From a virus (lineage: Duplodnaviria; Heunggongvirae; Uroviricota; Caudoviricetes), in the IMG/VR virus record IMGVR_UViG_2671180743_000009: a stretch of DNA of 8,376 bases. The stretch is one strand, 5' to 3'. The notes beneath the pieces were generated by a model that ran no database searches, was not told where the DNA came from, and worked only from the letters and a program-made list of their open reading frames with translations. The first letter of the stretch is position 1; every line of letters begins with the position of its first letter. Position numbers and translations under genes: made by a program. This document shows positions 1-6,791 of this stretch, piece after piece.

Positions 1-63
1 GCCGGCACTGCCGGCGGAGGTGCCGTAGGCAATGCCTGTTGATATTTTTTCCATCTGATACAT
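1..63 (-). CDS. S21/EssD-type pinholin (class II holin), N-terminal 21 codons only; gene continues past the window start
   Basis: Reverse complement of 1-63 translates MYQMEKISTGIAYGTSAGSAG, matching from memory the dual-start N-terminus (MKSMDKISTGIAYGTSAGSAG) of phage 21 S and DLP12 EssD. Two in-frame ATGs three codons apart fit the holin/antiholin dual-start motif. Position, first gene after the Q/tRNA region, fits a lysis cassette. Confidence 0.6.
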   Translation of the reverse strand, partial: MYQMEKISTGIAYGTSAGSAG

Positions 64-642
64 ATCCCGCCCCCCGACAGACCTGTGCTATCGCATTAAA
101 AAAGATCGCGTAGCATTCTTAATTCATGAGGAACTTTACCCGCCAGCAATCTGAGTAGCGAAAGCTGTTCATCCCCAATGTTTTTGCTGGCGGGTCCTTT
201 TTTCTACGGTCCTCCTCCCCGGAGGGGGGCATTTCATTATTTTTCTAATCGTTACTGGTGAGAAGGCGGAAGAAAAAGCCAGTTCTTCGCCCCTAAATAA
301 CAGCATGATTCCAGTCCATGCAAAATCTGATTTCCAGCTCACACATACCGAGCGCTGTACAAAAAACCGCCAGCCAAGGCAGTTAAGAGTGTGTTCCCGG
401 GGTTTGCTTAGAATATTTTGTAAGTTGTCCGAAGAGATATTTACAACACCAGAATGATGAATCATCAGTCCCCTGCCAGAGGTTCACTACGTAACCTGAC
501 CGACAATGCACCATTCTGGTGCTGAAAAAAGAGCACTGGAACTGCAACAAAACAACATCACAGAACAGGAGATGGTAAGGAGTCAGACATTCCCACACAA
601 TATTGTGTCAGTGCAAATAACAACCTTCGTCTCAAATCTCGC

Positions 643-717
<75 letters not shown>

Positions 718-720
718 ATA

Positions 721-796
<76 letters not shown>

Positions 797-798
797 GC

Positions 799-875
799 TG
801 GCCCACCACCGAGGACTCGAACCTCGCACCGTCAACTTAGAAGGTTGATGCTCTATCCGGATGAGCTAGTGGTGG
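799..875 (-). tRNA. tRNA-Arg, anticodon UCU
   Basis: Reverse complement CCACCACTAGCTCATCCGGATAGAGCATCAACCTTCTAAGTTGACGGTGCGAGGTTCGAGTCCTCGGTGGTGGGCCA. All four stems are Watson-Crick, the anticodon loop is CTTCTAA, and CCA is encoded. The molecule starts with an unusual C1-G72 pair. Confidence 0.75.
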
Positions 876-876
876 T

Positions 877-953
877 TGGTGGCCCTTGCTGGACTTGAAC
901 CAGCGACCTGGCGATTATGAGTCGCTCGCTCTGACCAACTGAGCTAAAGGGCC
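877..953 (-). tRNA. tRNA-Ile2, anticodon CAU (lysidine type, ileX/ileZ-like)
   Basis: Reverse complement GGCCCTTTAGCTCAGTTGGTCAGAGCGAGCGACTCATAATCGCCAGGTCGCTGGTTCAAGTCCAGCAAGGGCCACCA. Anticodon loop is CTCATAA. Acceptor, anticodon and T-arm segments resemble E. coli ileX from memory rather than elongator or initiator tRNA-Met. Confidence 0.75.
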
Positions 954-2621: not shown

Positions 2622-2909
2622 TCAATCCTGCTCAAGATTGTAGATGAGTTTATTCTTCAGCAAAAGCAGAAAACCAGCCTTAAAACCAATCTCTTTCAAA
2701 ACCCGTAATGATGTGACAAATTCGTCCTCACGCAAAATAAAACCGTCCGTCAGAAGTCCATTACAAAAATAAAATAACACAGCACCGCTCTTCCTTTGTT
2801 GAGATTGCAAACATCTAATGCGGCAATGGCTGACAATCGCTCCATTCTCAACGCGCACAGCATAGAGGCCATTTTCACTAAAAATTTCACGCAATTCTTC
2901 GATTTTCAT
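2622..2909 (-). CDS. Hypothetical protein, 95 aa, AT-rich gene of unknown function
   Basis: ORF 2622..2909 with a GGAAGGA Shine-Dalgarno 8 nt upstream of the ATG. First gene after a promoter-like element. I recognise no homolog. Confidence 0.45.
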   Translation of the reverse strand: MKIEELREIFSENGLYAVRVENGAIVSHCRIRCLQSQQRKSGAVLFYFCNGLLTDGFILREDEFVTSLRVLKEIGFKAGFLLLLKNKLIYNLEQD

Positions 2910-2990
2910 CTTCAGAATCCTTCCAGATAAATAGCTCTCCCCTGTTCGGGGTCCATCCCTCTTCTCCCTGCGCGCTACTTAAGTGAGTCG

Positions 2991-3018
2991 ATTCTATCTG
3001 CGAAGGTGCGCGAATCAA
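2991..3018 (-). promoter_or_regulatory. Candidate sigma-70 promoter for the 95-aa/DUF1367/YbcO/Q operon: -35 TTGATT, 16-bp spacer, -10 TAGAAT
   Basis: Minus strand has TTGATT (plus 3013-3018), a 16-bp spacer, then TAGAAT (plus 2991-2996). It lies just downstream of the hok terminator and about 80 nt upstream of the ATG at 2909. Confidence 0.35.
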
Positions 3019-3029
3019 ATTCACCGGAA

Positions 3030-3081
3030 ATAAACAACAAAAAACCCGCCGAAACGCTGAGAGATCACAGCGATGGGCGGG
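3030..3081 (-). terminator. Intrinsic terminator downstream of hok
   Basis: Minus strand has CCCGCC ... GGCGGG (plus 3045-3050 pairing with 3076-3081, with an inner CGCTG/CAGCG sub-stem) followed by TTTTTTGTTGTTTATTT. Confidence 0.5.
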
Positions 3082-3158
3082 TTAAGTGCGGGTGCGTTGA
3101 GGATGCCTGACACATCAGAGGTGGGCGGGGATGGGATCAGCTCCCCGCCCGGTCACTC

Positions 3159-3314
3159 TTACTTCCTGGATTCGTAGTCTACGAAGACAGCGACCTCCGT
3201 CTGGCCGGTTCGGATTCGTACCTCACAGAGGTCTTTCCTCGTTACCAGTGCCGTCACTATGACGGTTAAACAGATGACGATCAGGGCGATTAACATCGCC
3301 TTTTGCTGCTTCAT
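3159..3314 (-). CDS. hok: Hok/Gef-family type I toxin, 51 aa (closest recalled relative HokD/RelF)
   Basis: Translation MKQQKAMLIALIVICLTVIVTALVTRKDLCEVRIRTGQTEVAVFVDYESRK has the Hok hallmarks: a single transmembrane helix, the RKDLCEV motif and a TGQTEVAVF C-terminus. AAGGAG Shine-Dalgarno 9 nt upstream of the internal ATG. Confidence 0.8.
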   Translation of the reverse strand: MKQQKAMLIALIVICLTVIVTALVTRKDLCEVRIRTGQTEVAVFVDYESRK

Positions 3315-3371
3315 AGCCTGCTTCTCCTTGCCTTTCGGCATGTAAGAGGCTAACCTACATGTGCAAAGCAT
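3159..3371 (-). CDS. mok: mok-like in-frame upstream extension of hok, 70 aa
   Basis: ORF 3159..3371 begins MLCTCRLASYMPKGKEKQAMKQQKAM, the same pattern as E. coli MokC as I recall it (an N-terminally extended Hok in the same frame). Confidence 0.5.
   Translation of the reverse strand: MLCTCRLASYMPKGKEKQAMKQQKAMLIALIVICLTVIVTALVTRKDLCEVRIRTGQTEVAVFVDYESRK
3328..3356 (+). promoter_or_regulatory. Candidate Sok antisense-RNA promoter: -35 TTGCCT, 17-bp spacer, -10 TAACCT
   Basis: Plus strand has TTGCCT (3328-3333), a 17-bp spacer and TAACCT (3351-3356), inside the mok/hok 5' coding region on the opposite strand. The predicted start near 3363 would give an RNA complementary to the mok start and Shine-Dalgarno region, as in hok/sok systems. 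No clean terminator found. Confidence 0.3.
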
Positions 3372-3490
3372 GAAATTGGCCTCAGATTAATGTTAAGCGT
3401 CTTGCCGGACGCGTAATGTTAACTGGGGCTTTTCTCTATCTGCCTTTTGGTGTTCATGCCTGAAGCAGATAGCCTCAAGCACCCGCAGTC

Positions 3491-3520
3491 ATTCTACTTA
3501 CCTCGCCAATATGAAATCAA
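3491..3520 (-). promoter_or_regulatory. Candidate hok mRNA promoter: -35 TTGATT, 18-bp spacer, -10 TAGAAT
   Basis: Minus strand has TTGATT (plus 3515-3520), an 18-bp spacer and TAGAAT (plus 3491-3496). This gives a leader of roughly 110 nt before mok and a transcript of about 450 nt to the terminator at 3030-3081. Confidence 0.35.
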
Positions 3521-3541
3521 TCAGAAAGGTGCCCCATAAAA

Positions 3542-4228
3542 TCACTCCTTCTCTTCTTTACCGTAGTGGAGTTGACCAATTTTGATAAGAGGGCGTCCCT
3601 GAGATTTGCGGTGTAGATTGGTATCGCGCAGAGAATACACACAGCCACAATATTCCTGCTGATAGAATTTTTCGCGCTTGCTGATTTCAATCATACGGGA
3701 CGAGCCGCCCTGCTTGCGCCAGTTATAATCCCAGTACACCATGCCCGGATAATGCGCGACGGCTCGCCGCCCACAGTCGTTAACCTGCTGCATATTTTTC
3801 CAGCGTGAAATGCCCAGTGAACTGCTGATCACACTGAAACCATTTTCAGCGGCGTACAGCGCTGTCCGCTCAAAACGCATGTCAAAACACATGGTGCAAC
3901 GGATCCCTCGTTCGGGCTCCCATTCCATTCCTTTGGCTCGTTCAAACCAGTTGTCTGTGTCGTAATCAGCATCAATAAACGGCACGCCGTGTTGTTCAGC
4001 AAAGCGAATATTCTCATCCTTACGAATTAAATACTCTTTCTGAGGATGAATGTTCGGGTTGTAGAAAAAGATGGTGTAGTCGATTCCCGAGGCCTGAAGC
4101 GCCTCCATCACCTCACCGGAACATGGAGCACAGCAAGAGTGCAGTAGTAGTTTGTTTGCCCCGTTTGGGAGCTCCAATTTGGGCCGTTTGAAATCAGCAA
4201 CTGTCATAAATATGTTTATTGGGGTCAT
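3542..4228 (-). CDS. queH: QueH-like epoxyqueuosine reductase (DUF208 family), 228 aa
   Basis: ORF 3542..4228 carries the ordered motif set I associate with DUF208/QueH: [11 protein letters not shown] near the N-terminus, then [29 protein letters not shown] and YCGCVYS near the C-terminus. Start codon is ambiguous (ATG at 4228 or 4207; neither has a clear Shine-Dalgarno). Confidence 0.7.
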
Positions 4229-4375
4229 AAAAATATCAAAGAGTGTAGCATTAGAACGGGGCTATCGGAAACAGATGTGTGACTGCTCCCCGCCCTTTCG
4301 GGTGGTCTCCTGATGATTTGAGGGTGCAGAAATCCCTCCGGTTAAGGATTAAATTTTTAACAGTGCTAAATTTAA

Positions 4376-4732
4376 TTATTCAGTTCTGGATTTTGTCGCC
4401 CTGCGTATCCGCGCTTTCGCGTTACGCTCAATCTGTATCAGCTTTTCTATATTTCTCCGCCTTTCCTGTTCCTCCTGGCGCAATAGCCTTACATCATCTG
4501 CCAGTCTGGTTTCTCTTTTTGCCACAGAGAGCATCCAGTCAAACGGCTCCACAACCGCACCGCAGATTTTACAGCGGACCTGACGCTCTTTTTCGTCAAC
4601 CCGTACAGAGGCGTGATGGCAATATGGTCTTTCCGATGGCTCATAAAGAAAATTAACCTGATTACGAGGGTCATCCTCTTTTACCGGAAATAAAACGATA
4701 TTGCTTAACTCATCTTCTGGTTTTATTTCCAT
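4376..4732 (-). CDS. Hypothetical protein, 118 aa, Cys/His cluster plus basic coiled-coil-like C-terminus
   Basis: Part of the 4376..4789 ORF, starting at the ATG at 4730-4732, which has an AAGGAGAGGAG Shine-Dalgarno. Contains CHH...CKIC, consistent with a small zinc ribbon, then a Glu/Arg-rich segment. No homolog recognised. Confidence 0.45.
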   Translation of the reverse strand: MEIKPEDELSNIVLFPVKEDDPRNQVNFLYEPSERPYCHHASVRVDEKERQVRCKICGAVVEPFDWMLSVAKRETRLADDVRLLRQEEQERRRNIEKLIQIERNAKARIRRATKSRTE

Positions 4733-4789
4733 GCTCCTCTCCTTTGATGCGAATGCCAGCGGTAATTGAAGCCTGATAGCTAATTTCAT

Positions 4790-5212
4790 TCACAGTATCG
4801 CCTCCTGAAAATTACCCTGATAGAAAGCCAGTACACGCTGCATAGCTTCGCTCTTCCGGCACTCGCGACAGATTATATTCAGGCGCCTGTCGTAGCGGCG
4901 TATTTCTCCGTCAGGTAATGACCAGATAAGGTCCGGATCAACAACAACCGGTTTCCTCACCTTTACTCTCGAGAGTTTTTTGCGGGCGCTTTGCCAGTCC
5001 TTGCGAGCCTGTTCAGACGGGAATAAGCCGTAGCCAGAATTATATACATCACCACTTGCGACCAGTTCTATGCATAAGCGACCGACAGACGCACGACTGA
5101 TACCTGTTTCATCTGACAACTGCCGAATCGTGACCCGACCGTCCTGATGCACGAGTTCCACAATTCGCGTCTTCAGTTCTTCCCGCTGTTCGGGAGTAAA
5201 AGGTTTCGCCAT
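4790..5212 (-). CDS. Hypothetical DNA-binding protein, 140 aa, N-terminal winged-helix-like region
   Basis: ORF 4790..5212 with an AGGAGG Shine-Dalgarno 7 nt upstream. The segment VTIRQLSDETGISRASVGRLCIELVASG looks like a helix-turn-helix; the C-terminus has CRECRK. Sits immediately downstream of the DnaC-like gene. Confidence 0.5.
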   Translation of the reverse strand: MAKPFTPEQREELKTRIVELVHQDGRVTIRQLSDETGISRASVGRLCIELVASGDVYNSGYGLFPSEQARKDWQSARKKLSRVKVRKPVVVDPDLIWSLPDGEIRRYDRRLNIICRECRKSEAMQRVLAFYQGNFQEAIL

Positions 5213-5973: not shown

Positions 5974-6328
5974 GGTCCGTTACCCCCTGAAGCCTGGCGG
6001 GATCGCACTGTCCGGCAACGAGACGGTGTTAACCTGTCGGAGCAACGTCTCAGGCCGAACACCTTTCGGCGCGAACAGGCCCTGGTATTCATTGGCGATG
6101 CTGTGTCGAATCACCTGCTCAGGTGTAAAACCCTGCTGACGGAATTTTTCCAGTTCCCGTATCGCCCCGTTAGCGCCCTGCTCCGTTCGAATCGGTTTTC
6201 GCAATGCCTGTCTGAACCGGACCCACTCATGCCAGAGTGTTTCCGGCAACCAATCGGGCAGCTCAATAGCCTCCGGCTCGAATTTTTTAGACGCTCGTTT
6301 TTGGCGAGGGGGAGATCAGTATTTAGAT

Positions 6329-6366
6329 CTTCCTCTTCCTCTTCCTCTTCCTCTTCCTCTTCCTCT
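6329..6366. repeat. Hexanucleotide tandem repeat (CTTCCT) x 6.3
   Basis: Six perfect CTTCCT units plus CT, read directly. On the coding (minus) strand it is (GAG GAA)6, i.e. Glu x 12, in the middle frame of the YdaU-like gene. It also creates the poly-Ser artefact in the plus-strand ORF 5869..6381. Confidence 0.9.
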
Positions 6367-6390
6367 GGTAACGCTTTTTGATCCGTTTGT

Positions 6391-6409
6391 GTAACGCTGG
6401 CAGCGTTAC
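6391..6409. repeat. 19-bp perfect palindrome GTAACGCTG-G-CAGCGTTAC (copy 1 of 3)
   Basis: Read directly; 9-bp arms around one central base. A GTAACGCT half-site lies at 6368-6375 and an inverted GTTAC...GTAAC pair at 6436-6455. Confidence 0.85.
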
Positions 6410-6599
6410 CTTTTCGTTTCAGTTCGCGTATTTTTGTTACTCGCTCGTTTGTAACCGCCCGTTTTTTTTAGAGCTTTTTCCGTTATGACGTTCAAAGTTA
6501 GGTAGAGAAAGCCCACCGTCATTTTCGACCAGCCATCCAACCTGAATTAACGCATCAGCAAAACCAGACATAAAAGTGATGCGATCTATTGCACTTTTT

Positions 6600-6618
6600 G
6601 TAACGCCGCGAGCGTTAC
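6600..6618. repeat. 19-bp palindrome GTAACGC-CGCGA-GCGTTAC (copy 2 of 3)
   Basis: Read directly; 7-bp perfect arms. Lies inside the YdaU-like N-terminal coding region, where it encodes CNARGVT. Confidence 0.85.
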
Positions 6619-6791
6619 AATCTGCATTACCGTCTATCATTTGTTGATCCGCCCATGCCCAGAAGCGAATAACCTTCCCTAATGCGGCATCTGGATCAAT
6701 ATTCAGAATCTCAGCAAGCCTGAATATTTCCGGCTTATCCGGCGTAATAACCTCGAGCTTTATCCAGTTTGAAGCCATTTGTTTTCACCTT

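What the first reader, a model, noticed from the sequence alone, without database searches (positions are those of the whole stretch)
3542..4228. Prophage-borne QueH-like epoxyqueuosine reductase next to a hok toxin and a phage tRNA array
The 228-aa protein carries the DUF208/QueH signature in the right order. QueH is the non-orthologous replacement of QueG for the last step of queuosine synthesis in tRNA. I do not recall it as part of lambdoid prophage gene sets, and E. coli itself uses QueG. Queuosine sits at position 34 of GUN-anticodon tRNAs (Asp, Asn, His, Tyr), none of which is in the neighbouring phage array, so the target would be host tRNA. That points to a cargo gene that alters host decoding, possibly alongside the phage tRNAs. 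The gene occupies the slot where Qin carries relBE upstream of hokD.
Basis: partly seen in the sequence, partly recalled or inferred. Interest (0 to 1): 0.72.

Follow-up and report, generated by a model that had tools for sequence, protein, structure and literature searches.

The report
Prophage-carried B12-independent queuosine tRNA enzyme
A lambdoid prophage found in about one in five E. coli genomes carries an intact second enzyme (QueH) for the last step of making the tRNA base queuosine; unlike the host's own enzyme it should not need vitamin B12, but the gene family is well known and already named in public annotation.

Summary
Window 3542-4228 (minus strand) encodes a bona fide QueH. 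It matches Pfam PF02677 at 220 bits over the full profile, has every family-invariant Cys/Glu/Arg/Lys, and its AlphaFold model superposes on T. maritima QueH at 1.2 A. The true start is probably the second ATG (4207, 221 aa).

The gene lies in a lambdoid prophage next to hok/sok, 2.6 kb from a tRNA array with no GUN anticodons. It is not rare. 995 of 5,426 complete E. coli genomes carry it, RefSeq already names it QueH, and all 5,426 also have queG. The gene is a discrete ~740-bp module (3536-4278) with a fixed 5' junction. It carries a conserved extended -10 element (TGCTACACT) shared with chromosomal Enterobacter-group orthologs. It occupies a variable cargo slot, where Qin has relBE. Purifying selection is strong (dN/dS ~0.03; 79/79 ORFs intact).

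Best reading: a captured bacterial queH that converts epoxyqueuosine to queuosine on host tRNAs without cobalamin, which E. coli cannot make. That reading is inferred, not shown. I found no paper in the held library describing a phage-borne QueH. This is a new member of a known kind, of moderate interest.

The parts
3542..4228 (-). queH coding sequence, epoxyqueuosine reductase QueH. It is 228 aa from the first ATG at 4228. The likely true start is the second ATG at 4207, giving 221 aa as in RefSeq. The stop codon is at 3542-3544.
   Evidence: Pfam PF02677, 220 bits, full length. PDB 7lc5 at 5e-22. Ligand and invariant residues present. AF2 model pLDDT 95.6, matching 7lc5 at TM 0.92 and rmsd 1.2 A. 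dN/dS 0.03. Start-site evidence.
4242..4250 (-). Candidate extended -10 promoter element TGCTACACT, 43 nt upstream of the ATG at 4207. This is an inferred native queH promoter, not experimentally mapped.
   Evidence: Invariant in all 13 leader variants of phage-borne loci while neighbouring bases vary. Present as TGCTACA(C/A)T at -40..-44 in chromosomal orthologs of Enterobacter, Kluyvera, Scandinavium and Erwinia. TGnTAnnnT occurs in 21 of 77 chromosomal loci against 4.8 expected from shuffles. The generic two-hexamer scan did not flag it.
3536..4278 (.). The queH mosaic module: promoter-like leader plus gene, about 743 bp, with sharp homology boundaries.
   Evidence: 95% identical to phage HannyBb over exactly 3536-4278, while the flanks are 80-82% identical or absent. 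The 5' junction is at 4278 in 62 IMG/VR loci. Homology to the Enterobacter hormaechei copy spans 4271..3535.
3159..3371 (-). hok/mok type I toxin gene (hokD-like). The hok CDS is 3159-3314 in RefSeq. It is the immediate downstream neighbour and co-travels with queH in most loci.
   Evidence: PF01848 at 9.8e-23. RefSeq names it hokD. Homology from queH continues to ~3077 or ~3379 in most loci.
3309..3484 (-). hok/sok regulatory RNA region.
   Evidence: Rfam RF01794 sok, 117 bits against a gathering score of 59.
3491..3520 (-). Promoter-like site (TTGATT-18-TAGAAT), presumably the hok mRNA promoter. It begins 22 nt after the queH stop codon, and no terminator lies between them.
   Evidence: Consensus scan, with 0 terminator-like sites found in 2900-4900.
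4288..4305 (.). GC-rich hairpin (CCGCCC-TTTC-GGGTGG) just outside the 5' junction of the module. It has no T-run, and its function is unknown.
   Evidence: Read from the sequence. The majority arrangement has a different hairpin at the same place.
4376..4789 (-). 137-aa zinc-ribbon-like ORF of unknown function. It is context only, present in a minority of queH loci, and absent from HannyBb and from the majority DUF977-queH-hokD arrangement.
   Evidence: phrog_1621, unknown function. Weak Zn_Ribbon_TF hit. Absence shown.
4790..5212 (-). DUF977 gene, the upstream edge of the variable cargo slot.
   Evidence: PF06163 at 1.1e-33. Slot occupants vary between prophages.
643..953 (-). Phage tRNA array (Gly-TCC, Thr-TGT, Arg-TCT, Ile/Met-CAT). 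It is context only, and none of these is a queuosine substrate.
   Evidence: ARAGORN, Rfam tRNA hits, RefSeq annotation.

Best explanation
The gene encodes a functional QueH, the cobalamin-independent iron-sulfur epoxyqueuosine reductase. A temperate phage captured it, together with its own promoter, from an Enterobacteriaceae chromosome; the nearest sampled relatives are in the Enterobacter cloacae group. It now rides as a self-contained ~740-bp cargo module in the variable slot between the replication genes and hok/sok of lambdoid (Rac/Qin-like) prophages of Escherichia and Shigella.

In the cell it would reduce epoxyqueuosine (oQ34) to queuosine (Q34) on the host's tRNA-Asp, -Asn, -His and -Tyr. 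That duplicates the host enzyme QueG. QueG needs cobalamin, which E. coli cannot make de novo, so the prophage copy should matter when cobalamin is scarce, letting lysogens finish Q instead of stalling at oQ.

Shown here:
- family membership, an intact ligand set, and the fold;
- cargo-module anatomy;
- universal co-occurrence with queG;
- strong purifying selection.

Inferred:
- enzymatic activity;
- expression from the conserved extended -10 element in lysogens;
- the cobalamin-sparing benefit.
For: Family and residues:
- Pfam QueH at 220 bits, full length.
- All invariant residues present in alignments of 56 and 42 diverse members, with CCAPC as the family consensus.
- AF2 model pLDDT 95.6, superposing on T. 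maritima QueH at rmsd 1.2 A.

Selection:
- 79/79 ORFs intact, 18 nucleotide alleles but 6 protein variants, 30 of 34 segregating sites at third codon positions, dN/dS 0.033.
- dN/dS of 0.025-0.04 against chromosomal orthologs.

Origin:
- Orthologs at 79-93% identity sit among housekeeping genes in Enterobacter, Kosakonia, Erwinia, Providencia and Photorhabdus.
- Only the Escherichia/Shigella copies have phage neighbours.

Module anatomy:
- Sharp boundaries at 3536 and 4278.
- The slot is variable between prophages.
- The TGCTACACT element is conserved.

Host context:
- queG in 5,426/5,426 genomes; queH in 995.
- No GUN tRNA in any queH phage locus examined.

Cofactor logic:
- The last step of Q synthesis depends on cobalamin, and oQ accumulates in B12-free glucose-salts medium (PMC4646009 and PMC6850298, both citing Frey 1988).
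- QueG and QueH coexist with different cofactor needs in S. aureus (PMC13443448).
- From my own recollection of Zallot et al. 2017 (paper not held): heterologous queH genes restore Q in an E. coli queG mutant, and no cobalamin was found in recombinant QueH.
Against: - No activity, cofactor or expression data exist for this protein.
- Neither candidate ATG has a Shine-Dalgarno sequence.
- The generic promoter scan found nothing upstream of queH, so the promoter rests on conservation alone.
- The gene lies in, and is co-oriented with, the phage early-right operon, so expression could be mainly lytic.
- The gut is usually corrinoid-rich, so the selective value of B12 independence is uncertain.
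- Whether oQ and Q differ in decoding is not known.
Confidence: 0.6

Rival explanations
1. Lytic-cycle auxiliary gene. queH is expressed mainly from the phage early-right transcript after induction or infection. It serves the phage by raising the Q/oQ ratio of host tRNAs while phage proteins are made, or by interfering with a host Q-linked response to infection. It does not serve the lysogen.
For: - The gene lies between the replication genes and the Q antiterminator, co-oriented with them.
- No terminator-like site separates it from upstream genes.
- It is present in an isolated, presumably viable temperate phage, HannyBb.
- A 2026 preprint reports that phage infection of Shewanella raises queG expression and the Q/oQ ratio, so this step is limiting and responsive during infection (10.64898/2026.03.05.709803).
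Against: - A -10 element shared with chromosomal orthologs argues for autonomous transcription.
- Purifying selection is strong across prophages, and the one in this window has a broken replication gene. That is easier to explain by selection in the host.
- This rival is not mutually exclusive with the best explanation.
Confidence: 0.2
2. Neutral passenger. queH is redundant with QueG and persists only because it is physically linked to the hok/sok addiction module and the prophage backbone.
For: - queG is present in every genome.
- queH and hok/sok share a homology block in most loci.
- The slot holds many alternative cargos.
Against: - dN/dS is 0.033, with 30 of 34 polymorphisms at third positions and 79/79 ORFs intact.
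- Constraint equals that of the chromosomal orthologs.
- All catalytic-site residues are retained.
- A neutral passenger should accumulate frameshifts and replacement changes.
Confidence: 0.08
3. Repurposed enzyme. The protein acts on something other than oQ-tRNA, for example a 7-deazaguanine base in DNA or another epoxide, or it works as a defence or anti-defence factor.
For: - It occupies a hypervariable slot of the kind that often holds defence or anti-defence genes. Methyltransferase and exoribonuclease genes are alternatives there.
- Phages are known to use 7-deazaguanine chemistry in DNA (PMC6884629).
Against: - The 40-kb annotated stretch around the prophage (L001) has no dpdA/tgt-like, queC/D/E or folE genes.
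- No PADLOC family matches.
- Sequence constraint and active-site residues are indistinguishable from housekeeping QueH.
- Hutinet et al. found no QueH in 7-deazaguanine phages.
Confidence: 0.05

Closest known systems
QueH / DUF208 (PF02677, COG1636), for example T. maritima QueH, PDB 7lc5
   Same: Full-length profile match, the same fold (rmsd 1.2 A) and the same conserved Cys, Glu, Arg and Lys positions. 79-93% identical to chromosomal QueH of other Enterobacterales.
   Different: It is carried on a temperate phage rather than a chromosome, and always alongside QueG. It has the family-consensus Cys (C36) where the crystallised T. maritima enzyme has Asp13, so the crystal protein is the outlier.
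QueG (E. coli yjeS), the cobalamin-dependent epoxyqueuosine reductase
   Same: The same predicted reaction on the same four host tRNAs. Both are Fe-S enzymes.
   Different: The two are not homologous. QueG needs cobalamin (PMC4646009). QueG is core, in 5,426/5,426 genomes, whereas queH is accessory, in 995/5,426.
QueG plus QueH redundancy in S. aureus, S. pyogenes/S. suis and Acinetobacter baylyi
   Same: Two non-orthologous enzymes with different cofactors for one step, interpreted as hedging against cofactor supply (PMC13443448, PMC12632869).
   Different: In those organisms both genes are chromosomal. Here the second enzyme is supplied by a prophage and is strain-variable.
Lambdoid 'morons' and cargo genes, including relBE upstream of hokD in Qin
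   Same: A discrete unit inserted between conserved phage genes, with sharp mosaic boundaries and its own putative promoter, interchangeable with other cargo in the same slot.
   Different: No terminator of its own was detected. The cargo is a tRNA-modification enzyme rather than a toxin-antitoxin, virulence or exclusion gene.
Phage 7-deazaguanine (preQ0/G+) DNA-modification clusters (DpdA, FolE, QueC/D/E)
   Same: Phage-borne genes drawn from the queuosine/archaeosine pathway.
   Different: Those clusters act on phage DNA and use the early pathway plus a transglycosylase. That survey found no QueA, QueG or QueH in viruses (PMC6884629). None of those genes is present here.

Membership tests
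QueH (epoxyqueuosine reductase, PF02677/DUF208) | Profile match above the curated threshold over the whole domain | tested here: met
   220.6 bits against a cut-off of 23.5, covering profile 1-174/175. phmmer to PDB QueH gives 5e-22.
QueH (epoxyqueuosine reductase, PF02677/DUF208) | Conserved cysteine set (CCxPC, CxxC, CxC) plus invariant Glu/Arg/Lys | tested here: met
   C32, C33, C36, C111, C114, C194, C196, E106, R110 and K144 are all present. These columns are 86-100% conserved in 56 diverse representatives and invariant in alignment A1.
QueH (epoxyqueuosine reductase, PF02677/DUF208) | QueH fold (PP-loop-like alpha/beta domain as in 7lc5) | tested here: met
   AF2 model pLDDT 95.6, pTM 0.91. 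Top Foldseek hits are the five T. maritima QueH entries, at TM 0.92 (target-normalised) and rmsd 1.2 A. The next hits (TtuA and others) have E-values about nine orders of magnitude weaker.
QueH (epoxyqueuosine reductase, PF02677/DUF208) | Binds a [4Fe-4S] cluster plus an adjacent iron; no cobalamin | not testable with these tools
   This needs anaerobic purification, metal analysis and EPR. The ligand residues are present.
QueH (epoxyqueuosine reductase, PF02677/DUF208) | Converts oQ34 to Q34 in tRNA | not testable with these tools
   This needs LC-MS of tRNA from queG/queH mutants. Strong purifying selection equal to that on chromosomal orthologs is indirect support.
Phage moron / autonomous cargo module | Discrete unit with sharp boundaries found in different phage backbones | tested here: met
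   Boundaries at 3536 and 4278 are shared by HannyBb and 62 IMG/VR loci, and the flanks differ. Alternative cargo occupies the same slot.
Phage moron / autonomous cargo module | Own promoter | tested here: inconclusive
   A conserved extended -10-like TGCTACACT lies at -43, shared with chromosomal orthologs. It was not flagged by the two-hexamer scan, and no transcript data are available.
Phage moron / autonomous cargo module | Own terminator | tested here: not met
   No terminator-like site in 2900-4900. The hok promoter-like site begins 22 nt after the queH stop codon.
Phage 7-deazaguanine DNA-modification system | DpdA/TGT-like transglycosylase plus preQ0 synthesis genes (FolE, QueC/D/E) in the phage | tested here: not met
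   None appears among the 61 annotated features of the 40-kb stretch around the prophage or among the window ORFs.
Known anti-phage defence systems (PADLOC) | Match to a defence-system protein model | tested here: not met
   No PADLOC family matches QueH, the 137-aa ORF or the 95-aa ORF.

The most novel reading that the evidence does not exclude
The prophage queH is a lysogenic-conversion gene. It uncouples the last step of queuosine synthesis from vitamin B12 in roughly one fifth of E. coli and Shigella strains. Under that reading, strains differ in whether their tRNAs carry Q or oQ in B12-poor niches such as minimal media or host sites where cobalamin is sequestered. It would be the first documented temperate-phage 'auxiliary' gene for the Q-specific branch of the pathway, which a 2019 survey reported as absent from viruses.
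Probability: 0.45. Interest if true: 0.55.

Novelty: new member of a known kind. Interest (0 to 1): 0.4.

Why it matters
If the prophage enzyme is active, E. coli strains are not equivalent in their tRNA epitranscriptome. K-12 stalls at epoxyqueuosine without B12, whereas about 18% of strains would complete queuosine. That matters for interpreting Q-dependent phenotypes such as biofilm, virulence, metal and oxidative stress, and antibiotic tolerance across strains and media. It would also add a tRNA-modification enzyme to the list of traits moved by temperate phages, and correct the 'unknown function' label of phrog_3217. The hypothesis can be tested with one LC-MS experiment.

Tried and rejected
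1. NCBIfam hmmscan gave no hit for the QueH protein, although RefSeq names it QueH. Pfam, the PDB and the fold search settled membership instead.

2. The generic promoter/terminator scan found nothing attached to queH. The promoter proposal therefore rests on phylogenetic footprinting.

3. The key primary papers could not be read because they are not held: Zallot 2017, Li 2021 and Frey 1988. Their content is cited from memory or through citing papers.

4. Literature searches for QueH or epoxyqueuosine reductase together with prophage found nothing relevant. The hits were author names, queG SNP tables or unrelated organisms.

5. The other 'phage' QueH hits in GenBank are not credible. The longest gut 'Bacteriophage sp.' contig (MT835504) carries ABC transporters, argH, asd and topoisomerase, so it is bacterial DNA. 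The 328-378 kb 'Acinetobacter phage MD-2021a' records were not followed up.

6. E. hormaechei B56 was considered as the donor (92-93% aa, homology ending at the module boundaries). Its copy sits beside an integrase fragment, and dS to the phage allele is ~1.3, so it is not a recent donor.

7. A DNA-modification role and a defence role were considered and rejected.

8. A codon-usage test (NAU versus NAC in phage genes) was considered but not run, because no decoding difference between oQ and Q is established.

Full report
**Observation.** The window has an ORF at 3542..4228 on the minus strand, 228 aa. It matches Pfam PF02677 (QueH) at E = 1.9e-65 and 220.6 bits over profile positions 1-174 of 175. 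It also matches the solved Thermotoga maritima QueH (7lc5) at E = 5e-22. Downstream on the same strand is a hok/mok gene at 3159..3371 (PF01848), with the hok/sok RNA element at 3309..3484 (Rfam RF01794, 117 bits). Further on come a 95-aa ORF, DUF1367, YbcO and a DUF1133 Q-like antiterminator. Four tRNAs follow at 643-953: Gly-TCC, Thr-TGT, Arg-TCT and a CAT tRNA. Upstream are a 137-aa zinc-ribbon-like ORF, DUF977, a DnaC-like loader, a replication initiator, and CII-, Cro- and CI-like genes.

**Membership in the QueH family.** I aligned the protein with 56 full-length representatives taken from a library clustered at 50% identity (4,755 representatives at E <= 0.001).
- The window protein has every conserved position: C32, C33, P35, C36, C111, C114, C194, C196, E106, R110 and K144. 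These are invariant in alignment A1.
- At position 36 the family consensus is Cys (54 of 56). The crystallised T. maritima enzyme, with Asp13 there, is the exception.
- An AlphaFold2 model built on alignment A1 is confident (mean pLDDT 95.6, pTM 0.91).
- Its five best PDB matches are the five T. maritima QueH entries, at rmsd 1.2 A and TM 0.92 normalised to the crystal chain. The next matches (TtuA and other PP-loop-fold enzymes) are about nine orders of magnitude weaker in E-value.

Cofactor binding and catalysis cannot be tested with these tools.

**Start codon.** RefSeq annotates 221 aa from the second ATG at window 4207. Chromosomal orthologs have no equivalent of the first ATG. In phage HannyBb the seven codons between the two ATGs change non-synonymously, MTPINIF to MNLINTF. 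I take 4207 as the likely start. Neither ATG has a Shine-Dalgarno sequence.

**How common it is and what is already recorded.** The gene is in 995 of 5,426 complete E. coli genomes at 90-100% nucleotide identity, and RefSeq names it 'epoxyqueuosine reductase QueH'. The exact 221-aa protein is on record on at least 1,000 contigs as 'MULTISPECIES: epoxyqueuosine reductase QueH [Enterobacteriaceae]'. IMG/VR holds at least 188 viral contigs with it. PHROGs has it as phrog_3217, 'unknown function', with a profile that begins only at residue 41, after the CCAPC motif. Among deposited phage genomes only Escherichia phage HannyBb has it, annotated as hypothetical. Other 'phage' hits are unverified gut contigs, and the longest of those is plainly bacterial DNA.

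On the literature side, Hutinet et al. 2019 state that no QueA, QueG or QueH homologs were found in the viruses they analysed (PMC6884629). My searches of the held library found no paper describing a phage-borne QueH.

**Origin.** In a scan of one genome per species, only the Escherichia albertii and Shigella flexneri loci have the window's phage neighbours. The 78 other loci (77-92% aa identity by tblastn) have none. Orthologs in Providencia, Photorhabdus, Erwinia, Enterobacter, Kosakonia and Scandinavium sit among ordinary chromosomal genes: purL/glrK, tmcA, mqo, sulfatase, LysR, GNAT and EAL genes. The closest sampled lineage is the Enterobacter cloacae group, which falls in the same 90% cluster. 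The closest single copy, in E. hormaechei B56, lies beside a truncated integrase. Synonymous divergence from these orthologs is near saturation (dS about 0.9-1.6), so the capture is old or the donor is unsampled.

**Anatomy of the module.**
- Against HannyBb, window 3536-4278 is 95% identical. The flanks are 80-82% identical, and the 137-aa ORF is absent.
- In 62 IMG/VR loci not limited by a contig end, homology to the window stops at exactly 4278 on the 5' side. On the 3' side it usually continues through hok/sok to about 3077 or 3379.
- Homology to the E. hormaechei copy spans 4271..3535.
- The unit is therefore about 740 bp: a 71-nt leader plus the gene.
- The stretch between DUF977 and hokD is a variable slot. 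Other prophages carry DUF7167, DUF551, a SAM methyltransferase, DUF5677, an exoribonuclease or Ea22-like genes there. In K-12 Qin, relB-relE occupy the position immediately upstream of hokD.

**Expression signals.** The generic scan found no promoter or terminator attached to queH. The only nearby promoter-like site (3520..3491) fits the hok mRNA promoter. However, the leader contains TGCTACACT (window 4250..4242), which reads as an extended -10 element (TGn + TAnAnT).
- It is invariant in all 13 leader variants of the phage-borne loci, while adjacent bases vary.
- It recurs as TGCTACA(C/A)T at -40 to -44 from the start codon in chromosomal orthologs of Enterobacter, Kluyvera, Scandinavium and an Erwinia, where the surrounding sequence has diverged.
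- Other genera have TAnAnT hexamers at the same distance.
- TGnTAnnnT occurs in 21 of 77 chromosomal loci, against 4.8 expected from shuffles with a maximum of 11.

I infer that the gene was captured with its native promoter and can be transcribed independently of the phage early operon. This is an inference from conservation, not a measurement.

**Selection.** All 79 full-length copies in the IMG/VR loci are intact. There are 18 nucleotide alleles but only 6 protein variants. Thirty of 34 segregating sites are at third codon positions, and dN/dS is 0.033. Against chromosomal orthologs dN/dS is 0.025-0.04. The protein is thus kept under the same constraint as the housekeeping enzyme, which argues against a decaying passenger.

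**Target and redundancy.** The phage tRNA arrays in this window and in 39 related loci contain only CAT, Arg-TCT/TCG, Thr-TGT, Gly-TCC and Lys-TTT tRNAs, never Asp, Asn, His or Tyr. A tRNA substrate must therefore come from the host. queG is present in 5,426 of 5,426 genomes, so queH is always a second enzyme, never a replacement. The 40-kb annotated stretch around the prophage has no dpdA/tgt-like or preQ0-synthesis genes, and no PADLOC defence family matches.

**Most likely mechanism.** QueG needs cobalamin (PMC4646009). tRNA from enteric bacteria grown in glucose-salts medium without B12 carries oQ, and in rich medium it carries Q (PMC6850298, citing Frey et al. 1988). From established knowledge, E. 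coli imports or salvages corrinoids but does not make them de novo. From my recollection of Zallot et al. 2017 and Li et al. 2021 (neither paper is held), QueH uses an Fe-S cluster plus an iron site, contains no cobalamin, and heterologous queH genes restore Q in an E. coli queG mutant.

Putting these together, the prophage copy should let lysogens complete queuosine when cobalamin is limiting. The same cofactor-hedging logic has been proposed for chromosomal QueG/QueH pairs in S. aureus (PMC13443448). I put about 0.9 on 'active QueH acting on host tRNA' and about 0.5 on the B12-sparing benefit being what selection acts on, for a combined 0.6.

**Rivals.**
- A mainly lytic-phase role is possible (0.2) and not exclusive of the best explanation. 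The gene lies in the early-right operon with no terminator upstream. A 2026 preprint shows that in Shewanella the oQ-to-Q step responds to phage infection.
- A neutral passenger linked to hok/sok is unlikely given the selection data (0.08).
- A repurposed activity on DNA or in defence has no support (0.05).

**Verdict.** It overestimates rarity, and it leaves the functional consequence untested. The gene family and its annotation are known, but the temperate-phage carriage and the B12-independence implication appear not to have been described in the literature I could search. I class it as a new member of a known kind, interest 0.4. It is not a surprise at the level of mechanism, but it gives a cheap, clean and testable prediction about strain-dependent tRNA modification.

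Noticed in passing
window 5980-6778, repeat at 6328-6366: The replication-initiator gene reads in three different frames around a perfect (GAGGAA)x6.5 hexanucleotide repeat. The N-terminal 113 aa end at a stop at 6437, an acidic E-run follows in a second frame, and the C-terminal 89 aa are in a third. The window differs from the near-identical FDAARGOS_944 prophage by several indels exactly here and at 6462-6463. The cause is either a decaying or replication-defective prophage, repeat-length variation, or assembly error.
   Followed up: partly
window 3542-4228; phrog_3217; PP925841 (L002 8001-8687): Phage databases under-annotate this gene. The PHROGs profile starts at residue 41, missing the CCAPC motif, and is labelled 'unknown function'. 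Phage HannyBb annotates the gene as hypothetical, with a second small overlapping CDS.
   Followed up: yes
window 4229-5212 and equivalent slot in E. coli genomes (hits H58-H81): The interval between the DUF977 gene and hokD is a hypervariable cargo slot in Rac/Qin-like prophages. Alternative occupants include DUF7167, DUF551, SAM-dependent methyltransferase, DUF5677, a 3'-5' exoribonuclease-domain protein and Ea22-like genes. It could be mined for other cargo.
   Followed up: partly
window 4376-4789: A 137-aa ORF with a weak TFIIB-type zinc-ribbon hit and phrog_1621 (unknown function) sits between DUF977 and queH in only a minority of queH loci. Its function is unknown.
   Followed up: no
window 877-953 and tRNA arrays in L015-L090: ARAGORN calls the CAT-anticodon tRNA Met, while RefSeq calls it Ile (lysidine type). 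Arrays in related queH prophages come in at least three versions: CAT-Arg(TCT)-Thr-Gly, CAT-Lys(TTT)-Thr-Gly, and CAT-Arg(TCG)-Arg(TCT). The last resembles, from memory, the ileZ-argN-argO array of Stx phages.
   Followed up: partly
L094 4181-4885 (Enterobacter hormaechei B56, CP170191.1): The closest non-Escherichia queH copy (92-93% aa) lies directly downstream of a truncated phage-integrase-family ORF and next to the bud (acetoin) operon. queH may therefore also have been mobile in Enterobacter.
   Followed up: partly
phage collection records MT835504.1 (L173) and CAKLQH020000001.1 / CAKLQF020000001.1: The 'UNVERIFIED Bacteriophage sp.' contig MT835504 carries ABC transporters, argH, asd and topoisomerase around its QueH, so it is bacterial DNA filed as phage. 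Two 328-378 kb 'Acinetobacter phage MD-2021a' records carry a QueH 78% identical to the E. coli one, which is odd for that host.
   Followed up: partly
window 4288-4305: A GC-rich hairpin sits just outside the module's 5' junction. The window has T at 4303 where FDAARGOS_944 has C, which weakens one stem pair. The majority arrangement has an unrelated hairpin followed by a T-rich stretch at the same place, possibly an upstream terminator.
   Followed up: no
window 1-94: The first 93 bases of the window map about 101 bp away from the rest in the otherwise near-identical FDAARGOS_944 prophage, indicating an indel of about 100 bp near window position 93/94.
   Followed up: no
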